Under the pieces are notes generated by a model. That model saw only the letters and a list, made by a program, of their open reading frames with translations. It was not told where the DNA came from and did not search any database. DNA of 64,000 nt. Source: Bacteroidota bacterium (GTDB taxonomy: Bacteria; Bacteroidota; Bacteroidia; Chitinophagales; Saprospiraceae). Below are positions 15,655-31,034 of the stretch, one piece after another; position 1 is the first letter of the stretch; each line of letters opens with the position of its first letter. The stretch spans positions 4,814 through 68,813 of the forward strand of contig JANNQA010000042.1 of NCBI GenBank assembly GCA_031400515.1. The letters are read 5' to 3'. The position numbers and the translations under genes are program-made.

Positions 15655-16152
15655 TCAATTCTCTTGTGTCGTATCTAATTTGTCAAGACATTGATGCCAA
15701 CTTTTAATACAATCATCCTAAGCTTCGACAGGTACACCTTAGTGCTGTAATAACATATGCGTTTTACCTCCATCTTCCTGAAAGTCAACAGTTAGAGTGA
15801 GTTCAAGTGGCCATTCACCCGGCAAGTTTAGATCAGAAGCCGGGATAATATTTCCTTTACGATCTACAAAACTATCGGTATACACGATTTTTTTGAGAGG
15901 GATGATTTCTTTGTATGTGCCTGTTGACCAAATCTTTATTCCATCTTCCCCTTGCATGGAGTTCAGATATTTTCCTCCTACTCTAAGGTCAATGGAGCAA
16001 TCCAGACACTTATAGTTCTCCGGACCAAACCATTTTTTAAAATTTTCAGGTACTGTCCATGCTTTCCACACATTCTTTAGCGGAAGGTTGAATGTTCTCT
16101 TGATGCGAATGGATTTTTGCACCTCAGCGGTTGTGTTTTCAGTCATTTTCAT
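15655..16152 (-). pseudogene. SRPBCC/AHSA1-family gene interrupted by two in-frame stop codons
   Basis: The intact ORF 15739..16152 ends …THMLLQH-TAA. The same frame continues GVPVEA-TAG-DDCIKSWHQCLDKLDTTQEN-TGA, and this tail matches the conserved C-terminal GW..LDKL motif of the family. Confidence 0.65.
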
Positions 16153-16337: not shown

Positions 16338-17515
16338 CTATTCTATCACATACACCGATCCTGCAGCAGAGACTGAGTTATCATTTTGATTTCCATTGAT
16401 CCCTGTGGCAATGGAATCTTCCTGATGTGATCCAACTACCAACATGTTGCCATCTGCAGTCAGACTTAAAGTCCATCCAAAAAAATCTGAAGTTTCTGTA
16501 TTCGATGCTTTGATATAGTGTTCCTGAAGCCAGATGCTACCAACCTTTCTACGCAGATATACAGCTCCTGCACTACTGGCAGTATTGTCGCTTTGATCCC
16601 CATCGAGTCCAAGAGCATTTGAATCTTCAGACGGTGTCCCCACTGCCAATGTCTTCCCATCTGCACTCAAACAAAGTGCATAGCCAAAAGTATCATCGCT
16701 TTCGCTGTTCGATGCTTTCATATAGGACTGTTGAGACCAGGACCCTGAATTGAGAAATACATAAACAGCCCCTGAGTTGCCGACAGAATTGTCATTTTGA
16801 TTTCCTCCGATCCCGGTCGCATTGGAGTCTTCATTTGGAGATCCTACAGCAATTGTAATTCCATCTCCGCTTATACTCACTGTGTTGCCGAACCGGTCAT
16901 CTGCATTTGTATTTGATGCCTTCACATATGCCTGTTGTGACCAGACAGAACCTGTCCTCACGAAGACATACGCTGCTCCGGAATTGGGTGCAGAGTTGTT
17001 GCTTTGAATTCCTTCGATGCCAGTCGCGTTAGAATCCTCAAAAGGAGCTCCTGCTACGAGATGATTTCCGTCTGCGCTGATACTCTGTGCATAGCCAAAC
17101 AAATCGCCGTTAGAGGTATTCGATGCTTTGATATAGGCTTGTTGTGTCCATGTTGTACCTGTTCTTTCAAAAACATAGACCGCACCGGAATTACTGGCCG
17201 AGTTGTTCGCCTGGTTTCCATTGATCCCGGTGGCATTGGAATCTTCCTGATATGCGCCTACTGCCATTGTGTTCCCATTTGCGCTCAGGCTCACATTCCA
17301 ACCAAAGAAATCATTGGCGCCTGTATTCGAAGCTTTGATATACGCCTGCTGAGACCATACCGTACCTGATCTTACGTAAAACTTATTACGAATGGTTACG
17401 GCAATCCGGCAGTTCAGCGCTTATACTCGTGACATAACCATATAGATCAAGAGTATCTGTATTCGAAGCTTTCACATAGGTATAGTTTCCATCATAAGGA
17501 GTATTGCCCAGAACT
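16338..17515 (-). pseudogene. FG-GAP/beta-propeller repeat protein gene that is 5'-truncated and decayed
   Basis: There are 5 or more units of about 66 aa (…EDSNATGI.GNQ.NNS..NSGAVYVF…W.QQAYIKASN….FG…S.SADGN…). There is no signal peptide. The frame stays repeat-like only to about 17385. At 17405-17515 the repeat unit continues in another frame (GNYTYVKASNTDTLDLYGYVTSISAEL) with an internal deletion. Confidence 0.7.
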
Positions 17516-17535
17516 GCGATAATGCCTTTGCCGCC

Positions 17536-17628
17536 GGCTCCTGGTCCCAACAGGCATATATCAAAGCATCAAACCCAAATGGATCCGATATTTTTGGCGC
17601 CAACCTGTCTCTCAGTGCAGATGGCTAG
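17536..17628 (+). pseudogene. Inverted fragment of the same FG-GAP repeat unit on the opposite strand
   Basis: The plus-strand frame reads …GSWSQQAYIKASNPNGSDIFGANLSLSADG then TAG at 17626. This is head-to-head with the minus-strand gene. Confidence 0.65.
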
Positions 17629-17903
17629 ACCTTGGGGCGTCCTTTAGGGACCCGCAAGCGTCAAGCGGGTTGGCCTCTACTTTCTCCTTATCACTTTGTT
17701 TGGAGTTGTCATCCTGAGCGAACGCAGTGAGTCGATTCTTTGTAATCGTGAGCGAACGCAGAGAGTCGAACGATGCAATAGTGCACCACACTATCCAATC
17801 TTGAGAGAGCATGAGCCGATTGAGCGATGCGAATAATGTGAATGCGAACGAAAGATCTTTTTTGAAACCGGTATCGGCAATAGTCACTATTCTGAGATTC
17901 GGT

Positions 17904-18269
17904 CTACTGCTCTTGATGAAACGCTTTTATAAGTTCCTTTAGCTCTTTGTCACTGATGGTTTCTGTATCAGCCTTATCATAAATAGTGATGAGGTTCACA
18001 GTAGCATGTTCATCCGTGGTAAGGATTTCGCCAATCAATGTTGACTCCACCAATGAAATGACCCTTGCGCCACCACTTTTGCCCTTCCCTTTGCTTGAAA
18101 CGATCAAACGGATTTTGTAAGCATTGTGTCCGAGAGGTGTTCCCAGAGTTGGGTTAAGTATGAGTTCACCTTCAAGTTTTAGAAGATCTTTCCGAAGGGA
18201 GGGGTACTTTTTGAGTAAAGGCTTAGCAGCGATCTTAAAACTCCTGGCAATCCGAACAGTGACATTCAC
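17904..18269 (-). CDS. Type II toxin, RelE/ParE superfamily (HigB-like)
   Basis: 121 aa with the motif …KGKGKSGGARVI… typical of this toxin group. It has a GTG start and overlaps the upstream small gene by 4 nt (GTGA). Confidence 0.7.
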   Translation of the reverse strand: MNVTVRIARSFKIAAKPLLKKYPSLRKDLLKLEGELILNPTLGTPLGHNAYKIRLIVSSKGKGKSGGARVISLVESTLIGEILTTDEHATVNLITIYDKADTETISDKELKELIKAFHQEQ

Positions 18270-18478
18270 GTCAGGAAATCTTTAAGAGTCTGCAATTTCT
18301 TTCCTGTTTGTTTGCTTCTTTTTACTTCATCGAGCCCTTCACGAATATTATTCAAGACGGCGAGCTTTGCCTGAAGCTTAGCATAGTTGCTGTTCAACTC
18401 TTCCCAGACCTTTACAGGTACCAAAACAGACGTTCTTTTTCCGTTGTCGTCAGTGACATATTTTATCGCGGTAGCCAT
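18266..18478 (-). CDS. Cognate antitoxin (small coiled-coil protein)
   Basis: 70 aa, upstream of and translationally coupled to the toxin, with a typical toxin-antitoxin size pairing. Confidence 0.6.
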   Translation of the reverse strand: MATAIKYVTDDNGKRTSVLVPVKVWEELNSNYAKLQAKLAVLNNIREGLDEVKRSKQTGKKLQTLKDFLT

Positions 18479-18585
18479 CTGAATTGTTTTTGCAAAACTA
18501 TGAAATCATAGTAAACCGCCCAGGGAAGAGATACGAGAAAAATTTGCTTGTAAGCTCTAACCATCATCCATTTTAAAAGATGAAA

Positions 18586-18693
18586 CCCATTCCCACCCCC
18601 ACATCCAACGCCCGTCCATTGAGAACATGATACATGGCACTAGCGGGGATGCCATCGAATTGTGACAACAAACTATGCTTTGCAAGGATCGAC
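18586..18693. repeat. 108-nt direct repeat, copy 1, flanking the phosphoesterase gene
   Basis: It aligns without gaps to 20614-20721 with 13 mismatches (hand count). Read on the minus strand it encodes …SILAKHSLLSQFDGIPASAMYHVLNGRALDVGVGMGFIF*. Confidence 0.85.
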
Positions 18694-18905
18694 AAAGAAG
18701 GTGAAGGGGAGGAGGAAGGTAAGGGTAAGGCTGATGAGCTTCATGAATTGTTAGAGATAGAAGATATCCGTATCGTATCCATATTTTATCCAAAAAAATC
18801 AGATGAATATTTTCCGACTTTCTCAGGGATTATGCATTATTGGTTAGTTGTATTTTGTGTAATCAAACTACCTATATGAGTTCGACTCTTACTTATAAAT
18901 CAGAA

Positions 18906-20342
18906 TCAACTGTTATCCCCGTATCTGGCCAGAAACTCGTTCTCAACTTGACGAATGTTCAACGGAGCTTTTGGCATAAATCTCTTAACTGCCATGTCTT
19001 CGTACATCCGATTGCCGGTTAATGCAATATTCCTCTCGACGGTTAGTTCATCATCGGCCATTACTTCCTGCATATTCTCGGCCATCTGCAGAAGATCTTT
19101 TTGCAGCTCGTTGAGCTCATCAAAATTCTGTTCATTGATTTCAGCGAAGCCCATGAACTTCGGAGCTAAATTATCTTCAAAAGGGACATGAACAGTTAGA
19201 GGCCGCAGGGGATATTCGGGTTCTTCATCCGTCAGACTCTGCAAGAATGACTTTGCAATCTTGTCCCGATCCTGCAGATGCGCGTCAATATCTAATATTT
19301 GAAAAACAGATCTGATGATGGAGCTGTGATCATACTCTTCGCTATCGATATGTGCTTTTTTTGCGTGTGGTGATACAATTATGGCGGGGACTCTGATTCC
19401 GTATTGCTTGAAATCAAAACCTCCAACTGCTATTTGGCCATCGGGTGAAACACAAGTTGGAGGTGGCTCGTGATCATAAAAGCCCCCGTGCTCATCAAAC
19501 GTAATTAGTAACACAGATTTTTCGAATACGTTCTTGTTTGCCAGCAGTGTATTGTAAATCTCTGCGATCAGAGCCTCGGCTGCGATGAAGTCCTTATCGC
19601 CGTCCTTCCTATTGTTTGCGGGATGCATACTGTTTGATCTGCCTTTTAGGCTAAAATGAAGAGGTTCGATGAAGATGTAATTGGCGAGCCTATCAGATTC
19701 AACGTCTTTTTTGAAGTGATCAAATGATCTGAAACGGCGTTTAAACCACAGTTTATAGAAGACCATAGCTTGGGCAATGCCATCGTGATAGATTTGCCAC
19801 TTCAATCCATGTTCTGCGATCTCCTCAAAGATTGTTCTGTTCTTGTAGAATTTCTTTTTGATGTTTACTTCACCATCCGAAGTTCCTGCATGAGCGAAAT
19901 TACGATTGGGCCATGTCTCGCCTGGCACAGAGCTAAACCAATTATCACAAAGTGTGTATGCTTTGGCCAATTGAGCGATAATATAGCCTGGCTTTCCGGG
20001 AGTAGCGGTATCAAAAATTCCGAGAACTTCCCTTGGATCACTCTTGCCACCTTTATCTGTAATTTTCTCTGCATAGCTGCTGTAGAATCCATCATTTTTC
20101 CCGCCAACTCCCAGATCGATTTGAGTCATAATTTCCAGATGACTGTGGCCAGGATCCGGATCATTGTATGTGTTGGCACCTTTATAAACAGATACCGGTG
20201 TTGGGTCTGTCTTGTATTTAGGATTGGATTCGTTTCCTGTCAGTCCATTGAATTTTTTCGGATGATCAAGAAACCCAAAAAGATGATCAAAGGACCTGTT
20301 TTCAAGCATCAGAACAATTACGTGCTCAATTTTCGGCGGCAT
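18906..20342 (-). CDS. Phosphoesterase-family protein (phospholipase C / acid phosphatase AcpA-like) with no signal peptide
   Basis: 478 aa. The N-terminus IEHVIVLMLENRSFDHLFG is the hallmark of the PLC/AcpA phosphoesterase family, together with …ITFDEHGGFYDH… The start is not hydrophobic. Confidence 0.85.
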   Translation of the reverse strand: MPPKIEHVIVLMLENRSFDHLFGFLDHPKKFNGLTGNESNPKYKTDPTPVSVYKGANTYNDPDPGHSHLEIMTQIDLGVGGKNDGFYSSYAEKITDKGGKSDPREVLGIFDTATPGKPGYIIAQLAKAYTLCDNWFSSVPGETWPNRNFAHAGTSDGEVNIKKKFYKNRTIFEEIAEHGLKWQIYHDGIAQAMVFYKLWFKRRFRSFDHFKKDVESDRLANYIFIEPLHFSLKGRSNSMHPANNRKDGDKDFIAAEALIAEIYNTLLANKNVFEKSVLLITFDEHGGFYDHEPPPTCVSPDGQIAVGGFDFKQYGIRVPAIIVSPHAKKAHIDSEEYDHSSIIRSVFQILDIDAHLQDRDKIAKSFLQSLTDEEPEYPLRPLTVHVPFEDNLAPKFMGFAEINEQNFDELNELQKDLLQMAENMQEVMADDELTVERNIALTGNRMYEDMAVKRFMPKAPLNIRQVENEFLARYGDNS

Positions 20343-20599
20343 TATTTCATTTTTAGTTTATAAAATTCTATGCAATATCGTTTAGCGTCCAATCCCGACT
20401 TAAAATATATCTAATCCAAGGCCTTGACTGTTCCTCTGTTCGTTCCTTAATGTATAGAGCATGACAATGTAACCGGACGAATAGTCCGATCCCGTGTTGA
20501 GATACTTTGACGGACTTCCAATCACTCGTTCTCGCCGATGCTCTAAAACTTCTCTTCGCCAGTATAATTCATCGAAAATCCATAGTAGTCCGCGCCAGT

Positions 20600-20779
20600 T
20601 CAAAAAATCATTCCCATTCCCACCCCTATATCCAACGCCCGTCCATTGAGAATATGAAACATCGCAGGAGCGGGGATGCCATCAAACTGCGACAACAGGC
20701 TTTGCTTTGCAAGGATCGACACATGCAGCTTCCGCGAATGAGCGATTCGAATGAAGTCTTGCTGACTGCTCGTGAACAT
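20600..20779 (-). CDS. 59-aa ORF whose C-terminal 40 aa are duplicated in repeat copy 1, possibly a gene remnant
   Basis: MFTSSQQDFIRIAHSRKLHVSILAKQSLLSQFDGIPAPAMFHILNGRALDIGVGMGMIF. It is below the ORF-track cutoff, and I translated it by hand. Confidence 0.3.
   Translation of the reverse strand: MFTSSQQDFIRIAHSRKLHVSILAKQSLLSQFDGIPAPAMFHILNGRALDIGVGMGMIF
20614..20721. repeat. 108-nt direct repeat, copy 2
   Basis: See copy 1 at 18586-18693. Confidence 0.85.
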
Positions 20780-20828
20780 TCATCGAGCCCGATTTATCTC
20801 CATCAATACGAGCGTTGTCAGATCACGC

Positions 20829-21596
20829 CTATTTTGAAATATCTCGTCCATAAAGCAGCATATCTTGCCCACTTTTGAACATAGTATAATTGCGAATGTC
20901 TATCGGAAATATGTAGGCGGGATTAGATGCTTTTTCCAGCAGCACTCTTTTCAAACTTTCTTCAAGTTTATCGTCTGTTAGTTTCGCAGAACGCTCAATA
21001 ATTTTAATTAGAACGATTCTTCTTTGTTCCAGGGTTGCATCTGAACATTCAGAATTTGTAATTGCATCATACTTTCCAAAATTCAGTCCATAGATTGGAA
21101 GTTTCTTCTGGGATTTTAAATTACTTTTTACAAGACTGAAGAGAGTTTCTACTCTGTCTTTCGCTCTACTTTCCTCTCCTTTTGTGTTTCCTTCGGAAGA
21201 AGCCGTTCCAACGCAAACTATCCCAAGTGCATTTTGCAATTCAGCGCTATCTCTATACTTGGAAATGACATCAGCCAAATCCGCCCTCTCATTACCTCTA
21301 ACAATTTCAGTGATGCTCGCGCACTTCCATCTGAATTGCTCTGACAATAAGTCTATCTCGGCTTCAAGTAGAACCTCGCCATCTGGAGCAACATCAACAC
21401 TTTTGTAAGTTGTATACGGATATTTGCCAATAATTTGTGTTCGCTGTGAACAATCAACACAGAGATCAAACCTCGTTTCAAGTTTGGTCAGACGACTCTC
21501 ATATTCTCGTAAAATTTGAAAGAACCAAACTACAAACGCAGCAAGAATTGCAACAAACAATCCTATCAAAATATTTTCACGGGTACTTTTTTTCAT
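20829..21596 (-). CDS. Single-pass membrane-anchored hypothetical protein
   Basis: 255 aa. One N-terminal TM helix (ILIGLFVAILAAFVVWFFQIL) is followed by a coiled-coil segment and a globular domain I do not recognise. Confidence 0.55.
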   Translation of the reverse strand: MKKSTRENILIGLFVAILAAFVVWFFQILREYESRLTKLETRFDLCVDCSQRTQIIGKYPYTTYKSVDVAPDGEVLLEAEIDLLSEQFRWKCASITEIVRGNERADLADVISKYRDSAELQNALGIVCVGTASSEGNTKGEESRAKDRVETLFSLVKSNLKSQKKLPIYGLNFGKYDAITNSECSDATLEQRRIVLIKIIERSAKLTDDKLEESLKRVLLEKASNPAYIFPIDIRNYTMFKSGQDMLLYGRDISK

Positions 21597-21965
21597 TGTC
21601 GATTGCCTTTCTAACTAGGAACTAAGGTTACATATAGCGTACTGTACAAGATCAAAATGCTGATAGAATCCAAATGTCAATTCAGTCTTGAATTTCAATG
21701 AGGCAGGAGCATGGGGTCTTTGAATATCTGCTTCGTTTGTACTGTTGAAGAAATATTCCCTTCTGTGATGCTTTTGAGTTTCCAGGTCTTGAGCGAAGAG
21801 GGAGATGGGTGAGGAAAGAGAGTTGGATTTCATGATTGGTACGGGTAGAAGCTTTTTCAAGCGATGCCTTAATGTCCACACCAACTTCAACTAAAAATGG
21901 TTGGGTCATGGTTCAATTTTAGGTACAATTCTAGCCTGTGTCTTTTACAAATTCGCTTGGCTACC

Positions 21966-22583
21966 TTATTCTGTTAAGACGTCAGCTAAGTTCTTAAAAT
22001 ATTCAGTCAAGATAATAAACAACAACGTGTTACTACTTCTTTTTTTTTGTACTAACAGATCAGCCATGGTAGGGTTAAGAGAGGCAAGATATCCCAATTG
22101 ATCCTTTACGAATTTCTCAAATTTTGCAATTGCATTGTGAGATCTGTGTGCAATAGCGTTACGGATTACAACCAGTTCGTACATTTTATCACTGGATAGA
22201 TTGATCTTTTGAACTCTCGAATTAGACCTGAAATGATCTTCAATTCTTTGTCTAAGAATTGTTGAATCTAACCAGTCAATGTAATCCTTGTCCCGATCTC
22301 TTCTATTCATATTTATTTTTCTAAAAGCGATAGATAAGTTATTATATGGAGTATGTAACGGTTTTATTATTTTATTTGACCTCGTCTTGCAGGAACAAAG
22401 GCATCTTAAAAAATACTCTTCAATGAATAATTCCCAGCAAACTACAAATCTGATATAACAACCTTCAATTAAAGTATCCCTTCTTAAACTTGGCTGATCG
22501 GTAGATACGGACTTTACAATTGATTCGAGTTCTTCAACCTGTCCAACAAGCCTATCGTATATGCTAGTTAATGCGTAAGCCAC
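21966..22583 (-). CDS. HEPN-domain protein (predicted RNase-type effector)
   Basis: 205 aa and all-helical in appearance. The Rx4H motif RNAIAH is at residues 141-146 (nt 22146-22163). The GTG start directly abuts the TAA of the DUF262 gene. Confidence 0.6.
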   Translation of the reverse strand: MAYALTSIYDRLVGQVEELESIVKSVSTDQPSLRRDTLIEGCYIRFVVCWELFIEEYFLRCLCSCKTRSNKIIKPLHTPYNNLSIAFRKINMNRRDRDKDYIDWLDSTILRQRIEDHFRSNSRVQKINLSSDKMYELVVIRNAIAHRSHNAIAKFEKFVKDQLGYLASLNPTMADLLVQKKRSSNTLLFIILTEYFKNLADVLTE

Positions 22584-23615
22584 TTAGACTATGAGTTTCG
22601 AAATTTCAGTATGTCTGAACATTCTCTGCGCCACGTTTCCAGTGGCTTGCTTGAATTCAGCTTTCATGATAGGGTCAAATTCCCTTCTTTGATAATTAAT
22701 ACTGAACTTCTCTAAGCGCTTTATACTTTGTTCAGTATTCACATGCCCTGTTTTCTCATTTACTTTTCCTTCAAAACCAAACAGTCTGGCATAGACCACG
22801 AGAAAAAGTGAATAAAACATAAACTTAGGGCTGAATACAGTTCTTATATGTTTAGATTCTAGTAGATGTCCAAGAATGCTAATAGTTTTGGTAAACCTCT
22901 CATAAAGACCTTTACGATTTGGTAGATTTTCTTCGTATCTCGCGTACATTTTGTCAACTCCAGATGCACTAGCTGACTTAATTCCACTTATCACAGTATA
23001 AAGAATCTCTGAAACTAAAAGCGCATCGGCCATTCTCGCAATATTGTTCTCTGAAAGGATCTTGAATTGTATCCAAAAAGTGTTGTACTCTGATGCTATT
23101 TCATACACTAAGGTCTTAAACTCACCCGCGAATTTTGAATTACGCTTTTCCTGTGTATTTAATGGGAGGCTAAACGAATTTAATCTGGAGAAAATAGAGA
23201 TGATGTCTGCCTCCGTTGCACCACGAATTGAAATAAATGAAACTTCAAAATCCTCATACTTTTGTTGTTCATTTTTTGGTAGTTCAGAGAATAGTAGCCC
23301 GGCGTAGTCTTCTTCTGAAATTACTTTAGTAAGTTTAAAATGATTGGCACTAAATTCAGTTACTATTGAAATCCTTTGTTGTCCATCTATAATTTCCTTT
23401 CTTCTTTCCCCCGCCTCATTAATATAGTCCCTGAGATATATTGGTGGAAGTGGAAAATTACTAAGTATTGTATCTATTAATGCGGTCTTAGCATTTTTTG
23501 GCCAACTAGTTCTTCTTCTTTGATACTTTGGCTGAATCACCATTTCTTTACTTTCAAGCAATCGTGTAATATCTCTGATACTATACATTCTCTGAGATAA
23601 TTGGATCTTACTCAT
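22584..23615 (-). CDS. DUF262 (ParB/GmrSD N-terminal-like) protein lacking a DUF1524 nuclease domain
   Basis: 343 aa with …VIQPKYQRRRTSW… and the signature IDGQQR (residues 76-81). No HNH/DUF1524-like His-Me motif is visible in the C-terminal half. Confidence 0.8.
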   Translation of the reverse strand: MSKIQLSQRMYSIRDITRLLESKEMVIQPKYQRRRTSWPKNAKTALIDTILSNFPLPPIYLRDYINEAGERRKEIIDGQQRISIVTEFSANHFKLTKVISEEDYAGLLFSELPKNEQQKYEDFEVSFISIRGATEADIISIFSRLNSFSLPLNTQEKRNSKFAGEFKTLVYEIASEYNTFWIQFKILSENNIARMADALLVSEILYTVISGIKSASASGVDKMYARYEENLPNRKGLYERFTKTISILGHLLESKHIRTVFSPKFMFYSLFLVVYARLFGFEGKVNEKTGHVNTEQSIKRLEKFSINYQRREFDPIMKAEFKQATGNVAQRMFRHTEISKLIV

Positions 23616-23798
23616 AATTAGATATTTGAGTGTTTAAATTTCAGTTTGTCTTATGGTAGGTTTTTATGAGTTAGATGGATCTATATTTTCAATAAGATTA
23701 ATTAAAGACACGTATATTATCTAATACTTTGGTCAAAAATCTTTGCTAACATAATTGTTTATTCCAATGACGTAGAGTCTTGTCTTTATAAGATGTTT

Positions 23799-24110
23799 TT
23801 ACCTAACTATAGATAGAATTCCAAAATATTGAAGATCATCCTTACTCTCCAAACTCACCACATAAACTCCACTCACCAATCCCTTCAAACTCACTCTCGG
23901 ACTCTCCGGATCAAACCGCTGTGACAACACTTCCACGCCCTGCATATCCACAATCGTCAACACCCCTGCCTCCTCCGTCTTTACCTCGATATAATCCTTC
24001 GCCGGATTCGGATATATCTCCAACTCTCCCACAATCTCATCATCAACATCAGACACCACACATGTCTTACCTGGCAGATTCTCGTCCATCCACTCGAGCC
24101 TTGATGTACA
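23799..24110 (-). pseudogene. Orphan 3' fragment of a CotH-like gene (T9SS C-terminal sorting domain only)
   Basis: (RLE)WMDENLPGKTC…GELEIYPNPAKDYIEV…GVYVVSLES… is about 65% identical by hand count to the last 96 aa of the 28159..30198 gene. The upstream frame is broken by a stop. Confidence 0.8.
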
Positions 24111-24196
24111 TCACCACTCTAAGTAGCTATTCCACAAAAGATAAGATGGCAAAAGGAAGATATAGAAACAAGTGCAAGAGTTTAAAGATTTTTATT

Positions 24197-26377
24197 TTAG
24201 TTCTTACCATGCCAATTGCGATAATCCCAGAGTCTATCGCCACCAAATGAAATGTCAATTACAAAACCGCCTTTTAGCTCTTCTGATTTTGGTGAATAGT
24301 AGCCTATTCCTATTGAATTATAACCGAATTTTCTTGGATAGTAAAAGGCAAGCGTCCAGACAGTTCCATATTTTACGAATTTTCTGTTCTCTTCCCCTGG
24401 AAAAAATGAGTCTTTAGGAGGTCTGATATAATCAGCTCGATTTCTCAGTATCAATGATAAATCACTTTCTTCTTCAACTTGATAGATTAAAGAAAGTAGT
24501 CTAACAAACTGTTCAGGCTCAAATTCTTTCCAGGTGTGACGGTAAACGCCAAAACCTTGAAGATGGAATTTTTGATTTAATGGCATGGAAAATTCCAAAC
24601 CGTGAGATGATATCCAATCTTCTTCACCAAGAGGCAGGTTGGCTTGGTCTGATATATTCAATTCAAATGCCTTTAAACTAATTGGAAACACTACTGAATT
24701 ATTAAGAATTAGTTGCGGGTATTTCCACTTTTTGTCCTTACCTGCCCCTGAATATAATAAGATTCTATTTGCTAATGAGGGGCTTTCAAATCCGCTATTG
24801 AGAGTTGTTGAGTTTTCTGCTATGCCGGGTAATGTACTTGGCTCCTCATTGATTTGCAAAGCTAAAACATATGGGATTGAAAGGTTAAACTCATACCTGT
24901 TATCGTACACATACTTGAGGTTTGAATAAATTTGCGTGGAGAGGTCTGAACTTGCAGCCTTCCAAATTCTTGTAGGATCGTAAATCTCTCGTCCACCTGT
25001 GTTGACGGAAAGTTCACCACTGAACGCAAACAAGTTCTTTCCCTCTGTCTTGGGGTACCATCCGGATGCTCGAATCAATGAAGGATTGCTCTTTGCTATT
25101 GTATAAAGACTTTGGGCGTTCTTGCAAACACAGGCGCTAGCTTCTTTATGATATAGGCTGTCAATTCTTACTTTTTCTTCCTTATTTAGTCTTTCTAACA
25201 AATCTTTTGACCAGGTTTTCGGTTCACCAAAACCAAGTGGGATTACCCACGATACTGCTTTTGAATTGGGGCGTGATTTGATTACCCCCTCTCGAATGGC
25301 AAAAGGATTCTTAAACAATACTTCTTCTGTCCATGGGTCGGTAAAGTTCTTGTCGCTGATGGGTAACGGTTCGTGGTTGTATGCAAAATGTGCCGAGACT
25401 CCCCCTGAAAGTGAATAACCATACGCAAGTCCCGGTATATGTACTCTCAAAGTAGGTATCTCTAAAGGCGTTTCTACCGTGTGAAGTTCAAATGCGTTTT
25501 CCCAGAAATCCAACATTTCATTCGTAGGTTTGCCTTTTAAAAAATCATTAAATAAACCAGAAAGGGTATATGCATTTTTTAATTCTTTTAAAACAGTGAA
25601 TTGCTTCGCAAGGGCTTCAAAGTTTTGGGAAATCAATTTAGCATACAAAGGAGAGGTGCGAAGAGGATCTTCTCTCAAGAGTTTTCTTATGTTTTCTTCA
25701 TCTGGGATAGTTGTTCCCATTGGTAACTGTACAAACTCATCAGAATGGTTCTTAATTCGTACCGTTACTGAAGTGGCAGCAATGCATTCGCCGCCTACGC
25801 GATAATTCACTTTGAACGGGAAGAACCAGGATCTGTCCCATTTGGATTCCCATATCTCTTTCCTTCTCCCATCCTTTTCACTATCAATTAAGAGGTCAGT
25901 CTCGCTTGGCAGTCCATCAATCCCTGAAGAGACGAATCCTTCCGACAATAGTTTTAATAACAAATCCGCTTCGAATACGATTCTCCCATAATCCGTTCCT
26001 TCGATTCCACCTGTGTATCTGACTTTTTGAATATCTAAATTTGCTGAACGATTAAATGGTTCAATACTCACTCCTGGGTCATTGCCAATAGTACTATTTA
26101 TGTTATTTCTACTCTTCAATGAAGATACAACCAAGTTGAGGCTTACACATGGACTATTTGGATCGCTTTCTCCAACTATTATTATGTCCCCAAGTGAATC
26201 ACTTGCAATTGCCCATATTTTGGTTATGTGCCCTACATTAATGACCTCATCACTTGCAAGCATATTTCTTGCGCAGGACAGCGAAAAAGCAATCAATCGA
26301 GGAGGTTGTTCAGATGATTGCGCAAAGCAGTTGTGAACGATTAATCCCAAAATAATCGAAACTAAATACTTTTTCAT
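24197..26377 (-). CDS. Large secreted hypothetical protein
   Basis: 726 aa with a signal peptide (MKKYLVSIILGLIVHNCFAQ). I cannot assign a confident family. It is the last gene of a 3-gene operon. Confidence 0.6.
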   Translation of the reverse strand: MKKYLVSIILGLIVHNCFAQSSEQPPRLIAFSLSCARNMLASDEVINVGHITKIWAIASDSLGDIIIVGESDPNSPCVSLNLVVSSLKSRNNINSTIGNDPGVSIEPFNRSANLDIQKVRYTGGIEGTDYGRIVFEADLLLKLLSEGFVSSGIDGLPSETDLLIDSEKDGRRKEIWESKWDRSWFFPFKVNYRVGGECIAATSVTVRIKNHSDEFVQLPMGTTIPDEENIRKLLREDPLRTSPLYAKLISQNFEALAKQFTVLKELKNAYTLSGLFNDFLKGKPTNEMLDFWENAFELHTVETPLEIPTLRVHIPGLAYGYSLSGGVSAHFAYNHEPLPISDKNFTDPWTEEVLFKNPFAIREGVIKSRPNSKAVSWVIPLGFGEPKTWSKDLLERLNKEEKVRIDSLYHKEASACVCKNAQSLYTIAKSNPSLIRASGWYPKTEGKNLFAFSGELSVNTGGREIYDPTRIWKAASSDLSTQIYSNLKYVYDNRYEFNLSIPYVLALQINEEPSTLPGIAENSTTLNSGFESPSLANRILLYSGAGKDKKWKYPQLILNNSVVFPISLKAFELNISDQANLPLGEEDWISSHGLEFSMPLNQKFHLQGFGVYRHTWKEFEPEQFVRLLSLIYQVEEESDLSLILRNRADYIRPPKDSFFPGEENRKFVKYGTVWTLAFYYPRKFGYNSIGIGYYSPKSEELKGGFVIDISFGGDRLWDYRNWHGKN

Positions 26378-26385
26378 TTTTTTTG

Positions 26386-27498
26386 CTAATTAATTTTCCA
26401 AGTTTTCGAAGGATAGTTTAGTAAAAACCAAGTTCCTGAAAGACTAGGAAGGCCTTCGATAAAAGTCTCTTTATTAATTCCTTCGATTTGGATTGAATAA
26501 ACTCCGCCTTTTAAACTATCAGCAAAATCATGCTGATTGGTATGAATAGTAGCTGGAGTGCTGTTAATCATTTTATCTATGCTATTTCCCAAATCAAAAG
26601 CAGTAGCACCAGCATATGTAACTGCGCCGATAATTTTAAACTGAGGAATAGGAATAGCCATTGCCAGTTTAGCAACACCACGTGCTTCTGTAATTGAATC
26701 AGGTGAAGAAAATAGTAAATCAAGTTTTGCAAATGGTGTATTAATTGCAAAAGGAGTAATGTCGAAAAACCCTTCTACATTACCAATTGTGTGGTACGCA
26801 ACCTTTATCCCGTTGTATGCCAAGGAAAAATCAGACTTTAGATTTATGGCTTTCTGGAATAAACTTATACAACCTTCTTCGTCTCCGCCAACTAATAAAA
26901 AACCTACACCTTTATTCACAAAAGCATCGGCCATATCAGTTTTGATTGAAAGTGCCAAATCCCAATCTGCTGTACACTGAAGACACATCGCTTCATTTTT
27001 TAATTTCGACCACACCCATTCATTTACACCTCTAGCATTTAGGGCCAAAAAATTGTTCGGAGATAGTTCTATTGCTTTTGTAAATTCTACGTTAGCGCTA
27101 TCATACTTTTCTAATCTTGCCAATGCATCACCAAGTAAGTAATGAGAACTTGTAAAGCTAGGCTGGTTCAAAACTAATTCTTGGCAGAACGCTCGCCATT
27201 TTATCAAGGATTCGGAGTTCAGTGTATCACAAGCGCAGTAAAATTGATTCATCGCTTCATCGTAATTACCTAACGCAAGTGAAGTATGACCGTGTAATAA
27301 TCGAATAACTGGGTCCCCTTGACATATTTGATTTTTGTCCAATTTGCCTTGAAGTTTGGCAGAAGATTGCCAAGCTTCACGATAAATTTCATTTTCCAGA
27401 TAAAACTGAACTTGGCTCAAACTCTCAGTAACCTGACCTTCTAAAAATGGAGTGAAAATTGCGGAACAAAAAATGAAAATGATAACTATGATTTTCAT
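26386..27498 (-). CDS. Secreted TPR-repeat protein with an unrecognised C-terminal domain
   Basis: 370 aa with a signal peptide and TPR-like helical repeats (…GNYDEAMNQFYCA…, …KYDSANVEFTKAIELSPNNFLALNARG…). It lies 8 nt upstream of the next gene. Confidence 0.6.
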   Translation of the reverse strand: MKIIVIIFIFCSAIFTPFLEGQVTESLSQVQFYLENEIYREAWQSSAKLQGKLDKNQICQGDPVIRLLHGHTSLALGNYDEAMNQFYCACDTLNSESLIKWRAFCQELVLNQPSFTSSHYLLGDALARLEKYDSANVEFTKAIELSPNNFLALNARGVNEWVWSKLKNEAMCLQCTADWDLALSIKTDMADAFVNKGVGFLLVGGDEEGCISLFQKAINLKSDFSLAYNGIKVAYHTIGNVEGFFDITPFAINTPFAKLDLLFSSPDSITEARGVAKLAMAIPIPQFKIIGAVTYAGATAFDLGNSIDKMINSTPATIHTNQHDFADSLKGGVYSIQIEGINKETFIEGLPSLSGTWFLLNYPSKTWKIN

Positions 27499-27509
27499 TA
27501 TTAGTGAAT

Positions 27510-28013
27510 TTAATTGTTAATGAATTCGCTGTTAAAAACATCGACAGCTTTTTTAATTTGTTTTCTCTTTTTTATCGAACCGTAATAGGAAATTCCGGCA
27601 CTTACTGTCAGATTAATAGCGTCAACAACTGGAGTAGGGTTGCCATCATAATCACCGTCTCTTACTTGTTTAGCCTTCTTTATAGTATAGATAAAGGACT
27701 TGACTATCAGGGAGTAGAAAATTACCCGCCCACCAGTCTCCAGGGTTTGATACTGATAAGATTTTCTCAGCTCTCGAGCGGCATAAGGATTTGTCGCTAA
27801 AGCAGTTTTAAACTCATCGGTATATCCATACCCAAGCCCCAGCCAATGCTTTTCGATTGGTTTAGATTGTATCTCCCCAAATGAAAATTTTCCCTTCTTG
27901 AGTAATTGGATTGTTTCTCTTTTCAAGGTATCAGATACCACGGAGGCGTCTTGCCCAATAGATTGGATAAGAGCGAAAATCACGAGGTTCAGGGTTAGTA
28001 AGATATTTTTCAT
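27510..28013 (-). CDS. Small secreted hypothetical protein
   Basis: 167 aa with a signal peptide (MKNILLTLNLVIFALIQSIGQ). It lies 11 nt upstream of the TPR gene. Confidence 0.55.
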   Translation of the reverse strand: MKNILLTLNLVIFALIQSIGQDASVVSDTLKRETIQLLKKGKFSFGEIQSKPIEKHWLGLGYGYTDEFKTALATNPYAARELRKSYQYQTLETGGRVIFYSLIVKSFIYTIKKAKQVRDGDYDGNPTPVVDAINLTVSAGISYYGSIKKRKQIKKAVDVFNSEFINN

Positions 28014-28158
28014 TTGTTTATATCTAAGTAAATAATTTTTTCATTTTTAGCTTACGTTGGTTCTTATACCTGCGCAGTCCGTACCCTTCCCCTGAGCGCT
28101 GTTACATGCGCCTCGTTTTATACAATGGTGCTATAAGCTTCTAAAATAGAGGATTATA

Positions 28159-30198
28159 TCACTTATACTTTACGATCTTTCCTCGAAATGTCCCTGCATT
28201 AGCGGTCTCCAAACTCACCATATAAACTCCAGAACTTAATCCTCTAATATTAACCCTTGGACTCCCCGGATCAAACTCCTGTGAAATCACCTCCACCCCC
28301 TGAATAGCCACAATTCTCAATATACCCGCCTCCTCCGTTTGAATCTCCACATAATCACTCGCCGGATTCGGATAAATCTCCAATTCTCCAGCGATGAGAT
28401 CATGAGTACCTGAGGCAAGGCATGTCTTTCCAGGCAGATTCTCATCCATCCACCTGAGCCTTAATGACAACCAGTCGGAAAAGTAACCGACCTCCTCTGC
28501 GTAGGTGTTTCCAATGAAGAAGTTTGGCCAGACGTAGCGGGAGAGAATAGGCCAGCGCTCGTAGTTGCGGCTTTGCGTGGGTGCGAGAGTGTCGTACATA
28601 GAATCTATCCAGGCAGTGAGGACTTCTGTAGAAAGCACATTACGTCGCAATGAATCATACCGGCATCTCAACTGATCAGCATATGCAGGATCTTCAAGCA
28701 ACCTCGCCCACCACAATGGGGTATTACCGCATGCGCCGCTGTTGATATATGCCCATCCTTCGGTCGCCTGACAATTGCAATAGTCGACGTTGCCATACGC
28801 GAGATTGAAATCCCAGAGCGGACCAGCATGCAGAAGAGAGTCGATGGAATTTCGGTCTTTGAATAAGAAAGTGCTCAGACGGTATGCATCGACGTTGTGA
28901 CCTATTTCAGAAACAATGAAGAGATCAATAAATGACTCCACATCGATATAGGCGCGATATCCAACCTGCGGATCAGCAAAGTCCTTCCCATAGAGTGCAC
29001 GCTCAAACCTATCATAATAGTTCTCGATGTAGGCCTTCTGCTTAGGATGCAGATCCGGTCCTTCGGGATCTTCAAACACAACACGGATCTCCTGGTCCGC
29101 AAATGTCCCTTCATATTCTGAGACGAAGAACGAACCTTCACCATCATCGCGGTCAACTTTGAGGAGATATCCTCCGGTGAGTTTGTCGCCAGTGGTATCC
29201 TGCTCTTCGATCTTGGCGATGTTCACACGATTCTTGTCGCGCTTGATTTTTTCTTCGAGACAATAGACGCCATGATAATCGCCATTGAGAAATAATTCAC
29301 AGAAGACCGTGCGTGGCGCATAATGTCCCATGTCACGACCGAGTTTGTAAGTGAGTGCATCGCGGAGAAAACTCTTATCAGTATATGGTGCATACAGGAT
29401 CCAGTCCTCTTCTTTCGGCAGTCCGAGCAACTCTGTCTCGAGATCATCACCTTCTTCATCCCATGTCTCGAAGCCAAAACTTTTCTTGGGAAACTGTTGC
29501 GACGATGAGCCACGGACCTCGATGCCCAAATCAGAATCATGGATTGGTGTATCCGTGAGATAATTATCAAGACCCAGGTCATTATGAATGATGCGGATGC
29601 GTCCATGGATCTTCGGATCATCGGGAATGGTCAGTTGATCAGTAGTATTTAATATGACGATCGGCAGATGTGAGGATTCAAAATTCATTGGTGATGGTGC
29701 ATCGGGACCGAAAGTGATACTCCAGTCCAGTACTTCTCCGCCATCAGCGTATGCATAAGTATCGAGGACATGTAAAGTCCAGGTGCCATTGCCATCGCTG
29801 CCATTGTTCACAGTGCCGATTGGCGAGAACGGACGATACTTCGCTGTGTATGGAAAGCCACCATCAATAATGTGAACAGAGGTATCCATCGAGAAGCAGG
29901 TATTGAGATAGCCATCCTGATCACCACCGAGTGTCGCAGCGAGCATGATCGTCGTCCCATCCGGTGCAGTCAATCGCACATCGAGATCTGCCATCCACGT
30001 ATGCGTGATGTTGATACATACTTCTTTAAGACCAAAGCCTGCTGATAATGCAGATGACGGAAGATCATTGATACTGCGTGTATAAATGTTGTTCCTTCCA
30101 TCATCGTGGACGATGCCACCCGGGCCGAAGTAACTTTGGGAGAAACATGGGAAAGAAAGCAGGAAGAGGGATAGGAGGGGGAGTGTTTTGATGTGCAT
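28159..30198 (-). CDS. Secreted CotH-family protein with an N-terminal proprotein-convertase P-domain and a T9SS C-terminal sorting domain
   Basis: 679 aa with a signal peptide and a P-domain pattern (…CINITHTWMADLDVRLTAPDGTTIML…). The CotH core is recognisable (…LRDALTYKLGRDMG…YHGVYCLEEKI…). The CTD reads …ELEIYPNPASDYVEI…GVYMVSL…. Confidence 0.8.
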   Translation of the reverse strand: MHIKTLPLLSLFLLSFPCFSQSYFGPGGIVHDDGRNNIYTRSINDLPSSALSAGFGLKEVCINITHTWMADLDVRLTAPDGTTIMLAATLGGDQDGYLNTCFSMDTSVHIIDGGFPYTAKYRPFSPIGTVNNGSDGNGTWTLHVLDTYAYADGGEVLDWSITFGPDAPSPMNFESSHLPIVILNTTDQLTIPDDPKIHGRIRIIHNDLGLDNYLTDTPIHDSDLGIEVRGSSSQQFPKKSFGFETWDEEGDDLETELLGLPKEEDWILYAPYTDKSFLRDALTYKLGRDMGHYAPRTVFCELFLNGDYHGVYCLEEKIKRDKNRVNIAKIEEQDTTGDKLTGGYLLKVDRDDGEGSFFVSEYEGTFADQEIRVVFEDPEGPDLHPKQKAYIENYYDRFERALYGKDFADPQVGYRAYIDVESFIDLFIVSEIGHNVDAYRLSTFLFKDRNSIDSLLHAGPLWDFNLAYGNVDYCNCQATEGWAYINSGACGNTPLWWARLLEDPAYADQLRCRYDSLRRNVLSTEVLTAWIDSMYDTLAPTQSRNYERWPILSRYVWPNFFIGNTYAEEVGYFSDWLSLRLRWMDENLPGKTCLASGTHDLIAGELEIYPNPASDYVEIQTEEAGILRIVAIQGVEVISQEFDPGSPRVNIRGLSSGVYMVSLETANAGTFRGKIVKYK

Positions 30199-30369
30199 AG
30201 AAGAAATGTTACGAGGTACGTGTTACGAGGAAATCGGAATTTAATTAAAATGAAAATTAAAATAAAAAGGGGGAAAGGATCAACCGCCTTCGCCTGCTTC
30301 GGCGGTCGAGGACGGATCAACGGATCAAGAAGAGATCAATTCACTTCGAGACATCCGCAAGGTACCGCG

Positions 30370-30953: not shown

Positions 30954-31034
30954 CTTTTCAAACTTGTCTTGAAAAGGATTTAAACAATTAACCCCTAAAC
31001 ATTAAACATTAAACCCTTAACCAATCAAACCCCA

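What the first reader, a model, noticed from the sequence alone, without database searches (positions are those of the whole stretch)
17626..28158. AT-rich accessory segment bounded and interrupted by gene remnants, with no visible mobility genes
From about 17.6 to 28.2 kb the content switches to accessory-type genes. In order these are a toxin-antitoxin pair, a PLC-like phosphoesterase, a TM protein, the DUF262+HEPN pair, an orphan T9SS-CTD fragment and a 3-gene secreted operon.

Composition drops. My hand counts of single 60-nt lines give 19/60 G+C at 22261-22320 and 23/60 at 26401-26460. The tricorn gene gives 34/60 at 31201-31260.

The segment starts at the broken FG-GAP gene. It contains a 5'-truncated CotH-like remnant (23799-24110) and ends at the intact CotH gene. 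At least two insertion or replacement events are implied. I found no integrase, transposase or tRNA anchor.
Basis: partly seen in the sequence, partly recalled or inferred. Interest (0 to 1): 0.6.

Follow-up and report, generated by a model that had tools for sequence, protein, structure and literature searches.

The report
Patchwork accessory region without mobility genes
This stretch of a Saprospiraceae genome is a patchwork of at least five separately acquired gene modules with no mobility genes of their own. It is an ordinary kind of variable region, but two modules carry a clear insertion scar: a displaced, diverged copy of the end of the neighbouring gene.

Summary
No tRNA, Rfam RNA, tyrosine integrase or transposase remnant was found.

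Only 20.8-28.15 kb is compositionally foreign. Its GC is 0.36-0.38 against 0.448 for the genome, which puts it in the lowest 0.13% of genome windows. Its tetranucleotide usage lies beyond 99.5-100% of windows. The toxin-antitoxin pair and phosphoesterase (17.6-20.8 kb) have ordinary composition.

Horizontal origin is shown for two modules.
- The three-gene envelope cassette is 68-75% identical to a copy in another Bacteroidota lineage whose core genes are only 39-54% identical. It is low-GC in both hosts.
- The DUF262+HEPN pair recurs as the same 343+205-aa unit across phyla.

The cassette lies between the intact CotH gene and a displaced CotH 3' end (76% nt identity, no indels, dN/dS 0.32). 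The phosphoesterase is bracketed in the same way.

The best reading is stepwise 3'-end displacement by one-sided homologous plus illegitimate recombination, inside a roughly 25-kb zone that is not syntenic with the nearest genome. An independent assembly reproduces the segment exactly.

The parts
15655..16152 (-). AHSA1/SRPBCC pseudogene: two in-frame stop codons precede a conserved tail. It lies in the non-syntenic zone to the left of the segment.
   Evidence: Pfam AHSA1 8.5e-20 covers profile positions 2-96 of 125 only. The read-through translation shows ...LLQH*GVPVEA*DDCIKSWHQCLDKL.
16338..17480 (-). Broken FG-GAP repeat gene. It has no credible N-terminus, and its upstream repeat unit is in another frame.
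   Evidence: FG-GAP_2 5.4e-37. Stop-to-stop frames and the frame change near 17420-17440 are shown.
17530..17635 (+). Inverted FG-GAP fragment (about 32 codons ending in a stop), head to head with the broken gene. It marks a local rearrangement.
   Evidence: Inverted repeats I1-I4. The translation reads AAGSWSQQAYIKASNPNGSDIFGANLSLSADG*. There is a weak FG-GAP_2 hit.
17706..17778 (.). Two units of a 34-35-nt tandem repeat family. The family is dispersed over many contigs and contig ends.
   Evidence: Repeat family D8, genome-wide blastn. The independent contig L039 ends exactly at 17706.
17904..18269 (-). HigB-2/RelE-family toxin (121 aa).
   Evidence: Matches PDB HigB-2 at E=1e-5. The Pfam RelE hit is below its cut-off. 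It overlaps the antitoxin gene by 4 nt. A decayed copy with 84% nt identity sits at a different locus in G001.
18266..18478 (-). Small antitoxin-like protein (70 aa).
   Evidence: Weak RelB-like Pfam hit, and gene overlap with the toxin.
18568..18694 (-). 5'-truncated remnant (40 codons plus stop, no start codon) of a small ORF. This is direct-repeat copy A, downstream of the phosphoesterase gene.
   Evidence: Repeat family D4, 85% nt identity, found only at this locus. Translations are. dN/dS is 0.245. A 19-nt exact run sits at the 5' edge.
18906..20342 (-). Phospholipase-C-family phosphoesterase (478 aa) with ordinary composition.
   Evidence: Pfam Phosphoesterase 1.8e-62. Found in 0 of 200 genomes of the order. 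Best relatives are Saprospiraceae/Lewinellaceae MAG proteins at 49-55% identity.
20600..20779 (-). 59-aa ORF whose last 40 codons form direct-repeat copy B, upstream of the phosphoesterase gene. GC is 0.49.
   Evidence: It has no Pfam family.
20829..21596 (-). 255-aa membrane-anchored protein from a rare family, low GC (0.379, GC3 0.305).
   Evidence: Found in 0 of 300 phylum genomes. It has 228 relatives among 1.84 billion representatives, the best at 66% identity. One relative shows a faint OmpA-like signal.
21615..21890 (-). 91-aa ORF of unknown status.
   Evidence: No family found.
21966..22583 (-). HEPN (RiboL-PSP-like) protein of 205 aa carrying an RNAIAH motif. It is the effector half of a two-gene module.
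   Evidence: Pfam 3.6e-6, just under the cut-off. The motif is visible. A 205-aa partner is always present in other genomes.
22584..23615 (-). DUF262/ParB-like (NsnA-like) protein of 343 aa. It is the sensor half of the two-gene module.
   Evidence: GmrSD_N 2.6e-20. PADLOC NsnA 1.4e-38 and PD-T4-2_A 2.5e-21. There are 321 relatives, at 55-78% identity across phyla. DNA homology to L013 runs exactly from start codon to stop codon, 23615-21967.
23799..24105 (-). Displaced, 5'-truncated 3' end of a CotH gene (T9SS sorting domain) with native-like composition.
   Evidence: dN/dS is 0.32 with no gap. Nucleotide identity is 76% to the intact CotH and 69% to G001 CotH.
24197..26377 (-). 726-aa protein: signal peptide, N-terminal alpha/beta domain and C-terminal FapF-like outer-membrane beta-barrel. 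Last gene of the cassette.
   Evidence: Only 15 family members among 5.8 billion proteins. AlphaFold model has pLDDT 71.6. Foldseek matches FapF at 3.8e-9.
26386..27498 (-). 370-aa TPR protein, the middle gene of the cassette.
   Evidence: TPR families. It is a conserved partner in all homologous loci.
27510..28013 (-). 167-aa protein, the first gene of the cassette. It is related to the N-terminal part of the OMP_b-brl_2 partner seen in one distant locus (L011).
28159..30198 (-). Intact CotH-family protein (P-domain, CotH kinase-like domain, T9SS sorting domain). It is the only full copy in the genome.
   Evidence: Pfam, own-genome tblastn. In four other Saprospiraceae it lies in a neighbourhood that in this genome sits on contig C4 without CotH.
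30260..31030 (.). Block of GC-rich intergenic repeat families dispersed throughout the genome.

Best explanation
The segment is not one island. It is a patchwork of at least five independently acquired modules, lying inside a roughly 25-kb plasticity zone (window 14.7-39.6 kb) of a Saprospiraceae genome. The modules are:
1. a HigB-2/RelE-type toxin-antitoxin pair;
2. a phospholipase-C-family phosphoesterase;
3. a rare membrane-anchored protein, with or without the 91-aa ORF;
4. a DUF262 sensor plus HEPN effector pair, a candidate anti-phage module;
5. a three-gene outer-membrane cassette (small protein, TPR protein, protein with a FapF-like barrel).

Modules 3-5 are compositionally foreign. 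Modules 4 and 5 are shown to travel horizontally as bare gene sets without flanking DNA. None encodes its own mobility.

Inferred mechanism: cargo arrived on DNA that also carried a diverged copy of the resident flanking gene. It recombined homologously on that side and illegitimately on the other. The incoming gene end plus cargo therefore displaced the resident 3' end downstream. This left the order 'intact gene - cargo - orphan 3' end' twice: CotH / cassette / CotH remnant, and 59-aa ORF / phosphoesterase / remnant. This is 3'-end (C-terminal) displacement by homology-facilitated illegitimate recombination.

The DUF262-HEPN block was then, or earlier, placed directly behind the displaced CotH end. 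Pseudogenes and dispersed repeats at the left edge mark further rearrangement.
For: Shown:
- Composition is foreign only at 20.8-28.15 kb.
- The cassette matches L008 at 72% nt identity over 3827 nt, running exactly from the start of the first gene to the stop of the last. The proteins are 68, 70 and 75% identical, whereas the neighbouring core proteins of that genome (LptF/G, MutY, CorC, SSB) are 39-54% identical to this genome's.
- In L008 the cassette is also a low-GC islet (0.36-0.43 against 0.51-0.54 in the flanks). It sits in an unrelated neighbourhood without CotH.
- The DUF262+HEPN pair recurs as a 343+205-aa unit in Bacteroidota, Gammaproteobacteria and Cloacimonetes, with about 31% GC everywhere. 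Homology ends at the start and stop codons.
- The 726-aa gene and the phosphoesterase are absent from 200 genomes of the order, and the TM protein from 300 of the phylum.
- G001 shares nothing of 14.74-28.1 kb except a decayed toxin-antitoxin fragment at another locus.
- Both repeat pairs begin sharply and run to the stop codon. They have no or few indels and dN/dS of 0.32 and 0.245, so they diverged while functional and not as decaying duplicates.
- No recombinase is present.
- The same architecture occurs at three to four other loci of the genome, also without an integrase.
- An independent assembly is 100% identical over 10.7 kb.

The displacement model itself is taken from PMC5361080 and the Rhs literature it cites.
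Against: - No relative was found that carries a CotH allele followed by the cassette, so the donor is hypothetical.
- Microhomology at the illegitimate junctions was not demonstrated.
- At 76% identity, RecA-type anchoring in the repeated part itself would be poor, so the anchor must have lain further upstream in CotH or beyond.
- The dN/dS estimates rest on 88 and 39 codons.
- The phosphoesterase block has ordinary composition, and its nearest relatives are in the same family. It may therefore be an intra-family transfer or an old resident.
- The 59-aa ORF may itself be a fragment.
- All close comparators are fragmented MAGs (G001 is 93% complete, G002 56%).
Confidence: 0.62

Rival explanations
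1. The modules are remains of integrase-mediated islands that integrate into the 3' ends of protein genes and supply a surrogate 3' end (as prophages e14 and 21 do at icd). Their recombinase was either deleted later or acts in trans, as with CIME-like or satellite elements.
For: The architecture fits attL/attR geometry: an intact gene, cargo, then a displaced 3' end as a direct repeat reaching the stop codon. The selected-type divergence fits too. The phosphoesterase pair starts with a 19-nt exact run. The pattern recurs at several loci. Nine PF00589 matches (eight without internal stops) exist elsewhere in the genome and could act in trans.
Against: No integrase lies in or near any of the loci examined. 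There is no exact core at the edge of the CotH pair (longest run at the edge 7 nt, 11 nt within the first 40) or of most other pairs. The same cassette in L008 carries no CotH end and sits in a different kind of site. The cargoes share no common sequence.
Confidence: 0.2
2. The arrangement is ancestral. Two tandem CotH paralogues existed, and the second decayed where the cassette now lies. On this view the low GC reflects gene-specific bias, not foreign origin.
For: The remnant and the intact CotH are closer to each other (76% nt) than either is to G001 CotH (69% and 67%). That is compatible with a duplication within the lineage. dN/dS of 0.32 fits paralogues that were both functional.
Against: Cassette proteins are 68-75% identical to those of a lineage whose core proteins are 39-54% identical, and the cassette is low-GC in both hosts. 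The DUF262-HEPN pair is shared across phyla. No relative examined has tandem CotH genes. G001 lacks the low-GC genes.
Confidence: 0.1
3. The arrangement is an assembly or binning chimera of a metagenome-assembled genome.
For: The genome is a 205-contig draft from a family known mostly from MAGs. Dispersed repeats lie at 17.7 kb and 30.3-31.0 kb.
Against: A Logan per-run assembly (SRR20217196) reproduces window 28424-17706 at 100% identity across every junction. A second run reproduces 27853-23876. Repeat copies at 76-85% identity cannot be collapsed or created by k-mer assemblers.
Confidence: 0.03

Closest known systems
C-terminal (3'-end) displacement by homology-facilitated illegitimate recombination, as proposed for Rhs loci and Vibrio cholerae T6SS effector-immunity arrays (PMC5361080; the primary HFIR papers cited there are PMC122324 and PMC122325)
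   Same: Incoming DNA is anchored by homology in a conserved gene. A new 3' end plus cargo is installed, and the old 3' end is pushed downstream as an orphan. No recombinase gene is involved. Repeated events build arrays.
   Different: Here the displaced end is an allele of the same sorting domain (76% nt identity) and not an unrelated toxin tip. The cargo is an outer-membrane cassette or a phosphoesterase, not immunity genes. The donor allele has not been found.
Integrase-mediated islands or prophages at the 3' end of protein genes with a surrogate 3' end (e14 and phage 21 at icd), and their integrase-less derivatives (CIMEs); recalled from general knowledge and not checked here
   Same: Direct repeats made of a gene's 3' end, with the target gene kept intact and the copies diverged mostly at silent sites.
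   Different: No integrase is present, most pairs lack an exact core, and the same cargo in another genome lacks the surrogate end.
Defence islands and genome plasticity zones
   Same: Toxin-antitoxin, candidate defence and secreted or accessory genes are clustered with pseudogenes and repeats. Their phyletic distribution is patchy and their composition atypical.
   Different: Only one candidate defence module is present, and it is not a complete known system by PADLOC models.
Menshen (NsnABC) and PD-T4-2 DUF262-based anti-phage systems (PMC12065111)
   Same: The 343-aa protein aligns end to end with the NsnA model, which combines ParB-DUF262 with a DNA-binding domain.
   Different: There is no NsnB ABC ATPase and no NsnC. 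The partner is a 205-aa HEPN protein that matches no PADLOC model.
FapF-type outer-membrane polypeptide channels (PDB 5o65, 5o67)
   Same: The C-terminal barrel of the 726-aa protein resembles FapF (Foldseek 3.8e-9, TM-score 0.57 on the target).
   Different: The protein has a large N-terminal domain of about 410 aa, no sequence similarity (12% identity) and different operon partners. No amyloid subunit genes were seen.

Membership tests
Horizontally acquired genomic island | Composition deviating from the genome | tested here: met
   Met for 20.83-28.15 kb only (GC lowest 0.13%, tetranucleotide top 0-0.43%). Not met for 17.6-20.8 kb.
Horizontally acquired genomic island | Absent from close relatives, with patchy distribution | tested here: met
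   G001 and G002 lack it by DNA search. Found in 0 of 200 and 0 of 300 genomes for three genes. Caveat: the relatives are distant (core proteins 78-90% identical) and fragmented.
Horizontally acquired genomic island | Higher similarity to a distant lineage than the core genes show | tested here: met
   Cassette proteins 68-75% against core proteins 39-54%. The DUF262 pair is 55-78% identical across phyla.
Horizontally acquired genomic island | Integrase or transposase, or a tRNA anchor | tested here: not met
Integrase-type island at a gene 3' end (e14/icd type, CIME) | Exact core sequence at the 5' edge of both repeat copies | tested here: inconclusive
   A 19-nt exact run at the edge of the phosphoesterase pair, but only 7-14 nt at the CotH pair and the others.
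Integrase-type island at a gene 3' end (e14/icd type, CIME) | The surrogate gene end travels with the cargo in other hosts | tested here: not met
   The L008/L009 cassette has no CotH-like sequence.
3'-end displacement by HFIR | Intact gene followed by cargo and an orphan homologous 3' end | tested here: met
3'-end displacement by HFIR | The copies diverged as functional alleles, not as a decaying duplicate | tested here: met
   dN/dS 0.32 and 0.245, no gap in about 300 nt, and the frame is open to the native stop. Sample sizes are small.
3'-end displacement by HFIR | A donor lineage carrying the allele plus cargo, and microhomology at the illegitimate joint | not testable with these tools
   No such relative exists in the collections searched.
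Menshen (NsnABC) | NsnA-like ParB-DUF262 protein | tested here: met
   PADLOC NsnA 1.4e-38, covering model positions 42-379 of 385.
Menshen (NsnABC) | NsnB ABC ATPase and NsnC effector adjacent | tested here: not met
   The only partner is a 205-aa HEPN protein with no PADLOC hit. Definition taken from PMC12065111.
GmrSD type IV restriction | DUF1524 His-Me nuclease fused to DUF262 | tested here: not met
   Only GmrSD_N is found, at residues 17-162.
Type II toxin-antitoxin (HigB-2/RelE) | RelE-fold toxin with an adjacent small antitoxin gene | tested here: inconclusive
   PDB HigB-2 at 1e-5. The Pfam RelE and RelB hits are below their cut-offs. The two genes overlap by 4 nt. Activity was not tested.

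The most novel reading that the evidence does not exclude
This genome, and perhaps Saprospiraceae more widely, may have a recurrent cargo-insertion route that is recombinase-free or mobilised in trans. The route would target the 3' ends of protein genes, restore them with a surrogate end, and leave the displaced end behind. At least four clear loci show the scar: CotH, a 5'-nucleotidase, a homoserine-dehydrogenase-like gene and a PepSY-like gene. If so, this is a general mechanism of island building and not a set of isolated accidents.
Probability: 0.15. Interest if true: 0.7.

Novelty: new member of a known kind. Interest (0 to 1): 0.36.

Why it matters
The segment shows how accessory genes can accumulate in a Bacteroidota chromosome without any self-encoded mobility. 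These genes include a candidate DUF262-HEPN anti-phage pair and a rare outer-membrane cassette.

The displaced, still-readable gene ends give a dated scar of each event. Together with the same scar at other loci, they provide a concrete and testable example of 3'-end displacement outside the toxin loci where it was first described.

For annotation, the lesson is that island callers relying on integrases, tRNAs or GC alone would miss or mis-delimit this region.

Tried and rejected
- DNA synteny with the two same-genus genomes resolves only window 11.1-14.74 kb, CotH and 39.6-49.8 kb. These genomes are too distant and fragmented to give an empty site.
- I tried to decide which repeat copy is native by comparing with G001. 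The CotH result (69% against 67%) is not decisive. The host genes of the other loci are absent from G001 and G002.
- The DNA downstream of G001's CotH matches nothing in the segment.
- The identity profile of CotH against G001 shows no clear mosaic break.
- The 59-aa ORF and its remnant have no Pfam family, only a spurious fungal hit.
- PADLOC and NCBIfam models identify no complete known defence system.
- Promoter and terminator scans do not exceed chance.
- Considered and rejected: CRISPR for the 35-nt tandem repeats (there are no spacers), and a plasmid or prophage origin (no such genes).
Full report
**Source and setting**

The window is G000:C78:4814-68813 of a 5.23-Mb draft genome in 205 contigs, with GC 44.8%. 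Record titles of CotH relatives place it among Saprospiraceae (Bacteroidota), and the nearest held genome, G001, is a Saprospiraceae MAG. Syntenic core proteins of G000 and G001 are 78-90% identical. No truly close relative was therefore available.

**Checking the observation**

| Window coordinates | Gene |
|---|---|
| 16338-17420 | FG-GAP repeat gene |
| 17904-18269 | toxin |
| 18266-18478 | antitoxin |
| 18906-20342 | Phosphoesterase-family protein (1.8e-62) |
| 20829-21596 | 255-aa TM protein |
| 21966-22583 | HEPN RiboL-PSP-like protein |
| 22584-23615 | DUF262/GmrSD_N protein |
| 23799-24089 | T9SS sorting-domain fragment |
| 27510-28013 | 167-aa protein |
| 26386-27498 | TPR protein |
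| 24197-26377 | 726-aa protein |
| 28159-30198 | CotH |

- The toxin matches solved HigB-2 toxins at E=1e-5.
- The window holds no tRNA and no Rfam family.
- Contig C78 has no tyrosine-recombinase match, while nine matches (eight without internal stops) exist elsewhere in the genome.
- Six-frame translations of the intergenic stretches give no integrase or transposase domain. Two stretches were scanned on one strand only.

**Composition**

The drop is real but narrower than claimed.
- 21000-28158 has GC 0.374. Only 0.13% of genome windows of that length are as low.
- Tetranucleotide distance to the genome is 0.416 for 20829-23845, beyond all 1383 genome windows. It is 0.342 for 24106-28158, in the top 0.43%.
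- 17626-20800 is ordinary, with GC 0.429 and a tetranucleotide distance of 0.202.
- GC3 is 0.28-0.39 in the low-GC genes, against 0.44-0.50 in CotH, tricorn and the remnant.
- Among 22 low-GC regions in the genome this is the second largest. The largest, on C82, does carry integrases.

**Gene remnants**

*CotH fragment.* It matches CotH residues 580-667 at 69% aa identity and 76% nt identity (24105-23845 against 28465-28205).
- Homology starts sharply, has no gap, and both copies reach a stop codon at the same aligned position.
- NG86 gives dS 0.71, dN 0.23 and dN/dS 0.32.
- A duplicate decaying neutrally to 24% divergence should have collected indels and stops. The copies therefore diverged mainly while both were functional, and the truncation is comparatively recent.
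- The remnant has native-like GC (0.46), so it is an islet of resident-type DNA between two low-GC blocks.
- In the repeated 260 nt, the remnant and the intact CotH are 76% identical. Each is 69% or 67% identical to G001 CotH.

*FG-GAP gene.* It is broken. The longest frame starts inside a repeat and the next repeat unit upstream is out of frame. A 100-nt FG-GAP piece lies inverted on the + strand at 17530-17635.

*Second bracket.* The phosphoesterase gene lies between two 127-nt direct repeats (18568-18694 and 20595-20721; 85% identity; found only at this locus).
- On the minus strand the repeats encode the last 40 codons and the stop of a small ORF.
- The upstream copy is a 59-aa ORF with an ATG. 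The downstream copy has no start.
- dN/dS is 0.245.

The order 'gene - cargo - orphan 3' end of that gene' therefore occurs twice within 10 kb.

**Origin of the modules**

*The three-gene cassette.*
- The 726-aa protein belongs to a family of only 15 proteins among 5.8 billion. It was not found in 200 genomes of the order.
- Its closest relative (75% identity) lies in L008/L009. DNA homology there (72% over 3827 nt) runs exactly from the first gene's start to the last gene's stop.
- The three proteins are 68, 70 and 75% identical. The neighbouring core proteins of that genome are only 39-54% identical to this genome's copies.
- In L008 the cassette, with two extra small genes, has GC 0.36-0.43 against 0.51-0.54 in its flanks. 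It sits between a histidine kinase and CorC-SSB-MutY, with no CotH.
- This is direct evidence that the cassette moves horizontally as a bare gene set.
- Distant relatives keep a TPR protein next to the 720-750-aa protein, preceded by an OMP-barrel protein (two loci) or small unassigned proteins (one), again in unrelated neighbourhoods.
- An AlphaFold model (pLDDT 71.6) shows an N-terminal alpha/beta domain and a C-terminal beta-barrel resembling the FapF channel. The cassette is probably an outer-membrane transport or secretion device. That function is inferred, not shown.

*The DUF262+HEPN pair.*
- It has 321 relatives. Many are exactly 343 aa long and 55-78% identical. They come from Bacteroidota, Colwellia, Pseudoalteromonas, Vibrio, Methylobacter, Cloacimonetes and Thermodesulfobacteriota.
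- Three contexts examined all show the 343-aa gene followed within 1-3 nt by a 205-aa gene. The neighbours are unrelated and include transposase fragments and other defence-like genes.
- The pair has about 31% GC in every host. DNA homology ends at the start and stop codons.
- The DUF262 protein matches the PADLOC models NsnA (1.4e-38) and PD-T4-2_A (2.5e-21). There is no NsnB ATPase or NsnC, so it is not Menshen as defined in PMC12065111.
- The HEPN partner carries an RNAIAH motif.

*The TM protein.* It is absent from 300 phylum genomes and belongs to a small family of 228 representatives.

*The phosphoesterase.* It is absent from 200 genomes of the order. Its best relatives (49-55% identity) are in Saprospiraceae/Lewinellaceae MAGs, and its composition is ordinary. 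It is accessory but probably of in-family origin.

*The toxin-antitoxin pair.* It survives in G001 only as a 320-nt decayed fragment at another locus.

**Boundaries**

Synteny with G001 holds for window 11.1-14.74 kb and 40.6-49.8 kb. Between them only CotH (70% aa identity, on a 3.9-kb contig) has a counterpart in G001; the ankyrin gene at 39.6-40.3 kb also has one, on a separate 3-kb contig.

In four other Saprospiraceae, CotH lies between genes whose orthologues in this genome are on contig C4 (17969-19114 and 21015-22289), where no CotH is present. CotH has therefore itself been relocated or re-acquired.

The tricorn gene to the right is an extra paralogue. Its best relatives (56-57% identity) are in other genera, while the genus orthologue lies on C52.

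It is not an island set in core DNA.

**Mechanism**

The repeats are too long and too diverged to be target-site duplications. Their divergence is of the selected type. The simplest account is that the cargo came in on DNA carrying its own version of the flanking gene.
- Recombination was homologous on that side and illegitimate on the other. It installed the incoming gene end plus cargo and pushed the resident 3' end downstream.
- This is the C-terminal displacement / homology-facilitated illegitimate recombination model proposed for Rhs and T6SS effector-immunity arrays (PMC5361080).
- The main rival is integrase-mediated insertion with a surrogate 3' end, followed by loss of the recombinase or its action in trans.
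- In favour of the rival, only the phosphoesterase pair has an exact run (19 nt) at its edge.
- Against the rival, no recombinase is present, most pairs lack a core, and the cassette in L008 carries no CotH end.

**Recurrence elsewhere in the genome**

A self-comparison of the genome shows the same architecture elsewhere:

| Locus | Gene | Repeat identity | dN/dS | Note |
|---|---|---|---|---|
| C194 | 5'-nucleotidase | 86.6% | 0.22 | |
| C146 | homoserine-dehydrogenase-like gene | 75.7% | 0.11 | cargo includes RNase H and Schlafen-type genes |
| C11 | PepSY-like gene | 88.7% | 0.51 | 6.3-kb low-GC cargo |
| C190 | HicB-like gene | 89.9% | 0.07 | possible case only |

No tyrosine-integrase (PF00589) match lies on any of these four contigs, and the cargo genes scanned against Pfam showed no recombinase; several C11 and C190 cargo genes were not scanned. 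The host genes are missing from G001 and G002, so I could not test which copy is native.

**Artefact check**

A per-run Logan assembly (SRR20217196) is 100% identical to window 28424-17706, and a second run covers 27853-23876. The junctions are therefore not a product of one assembly.

**Verdict**

- The interpretation (accessory, multi-event, no mobility genes) is supported and extended.
- The region is a new member of a known kind (plasticity zone / defence-accessory islet). Its moderately interesting feature is the repeated 3'-end displacement scar.
- Earlier notes of this scan on the same window agree on the components. Notes on other genomes describe recombinase-less cassettes behind tRNA genes, which are analogous but were not tested here.

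Noticed in passing
G000 contigs C194:400-4650, C146:2684-7752, C11:12713-20158, C190:9489-15104 (loci L031-L034): The same 'intact gene - cargo - diverged 3' remnant' architecture occurs at three clear loci and one possible locus elsewhere in the genome. Divergence is mostly synonymous (dN/dS 0.07-0.51) and no integrase is present.
   Followed up: partly
window 15655-16152 (-): The AHSA1/SRPBCC gene is interrupted by two in-frame stop codons (TAA, TAG) ahead of a conserved C-terminal tail. It is a pseudogene without a frameshift.
   Followed up: partly
window 17706-17778, and many contigs (for example C87:37914-38209, C90:16618-16783, C189:5-139): A 34-35-nt tandem minisatellite family (TTGTCATCCTGAGCGAACGCAGTGAGTCGA...) is dispersed over the genome, often at contig ends. 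An independent contig of this region ends exactly there.
   Followed up: no
window 30260-31030: The CotH-tricorn intergenic region consists of several GC-rich dispersed repeat families. Two pieces recur on the same contig about 19.6 kb away, near window 49.9 kb (inverted) and 50.6 kb (direct).
   Followed up: no
window 24197-26377 (-): The 726-aa cassette protein is predicted to have an N-terminal alpha/beta domain and a C-terminal beta-barrel resembling the FapF amyloid-secretion channel. The family has only 15 members among 5.8 billion proteins.
   Followed up: partly
G000:C4:17969-22289, against L018-L021: The neighbourhood that holds CotH in four other Saprospiraceae is present on contig C4 but lacks CotH there. 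Two other genes of 253 and 187 aa take its place.
   Followed up: partly
window 31035-34658 (-), and G000:C52:62582-65833: The tricorn protease in the window is a second paralogue. Its nearest relatives (56-57% identity) are in other genera, while the C52 copy matches the same-genus genomes.
   Followed up: no
L003 (G001:C169) 6023-6340: G001 keeps a decayed 320-nt fragment of the same toxin-antitoxin pair (84% nt identity). Its flanking genes have G000 orthologues at the ends of contigs C77, C5 and C61.
   Followed up: partly
L008 5325-6585: In the other host the cassette is preceded by two extra small low-GC genes (229 and 142 aa) that are missing from the window.
   Followed up: no
G000:C82:1-13000: This is the largest low-GC region of the genome (minimum GC 0.327). 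Unlike the segment studied here, it carries tyrosine-recombinase genes.
   Followed up: no
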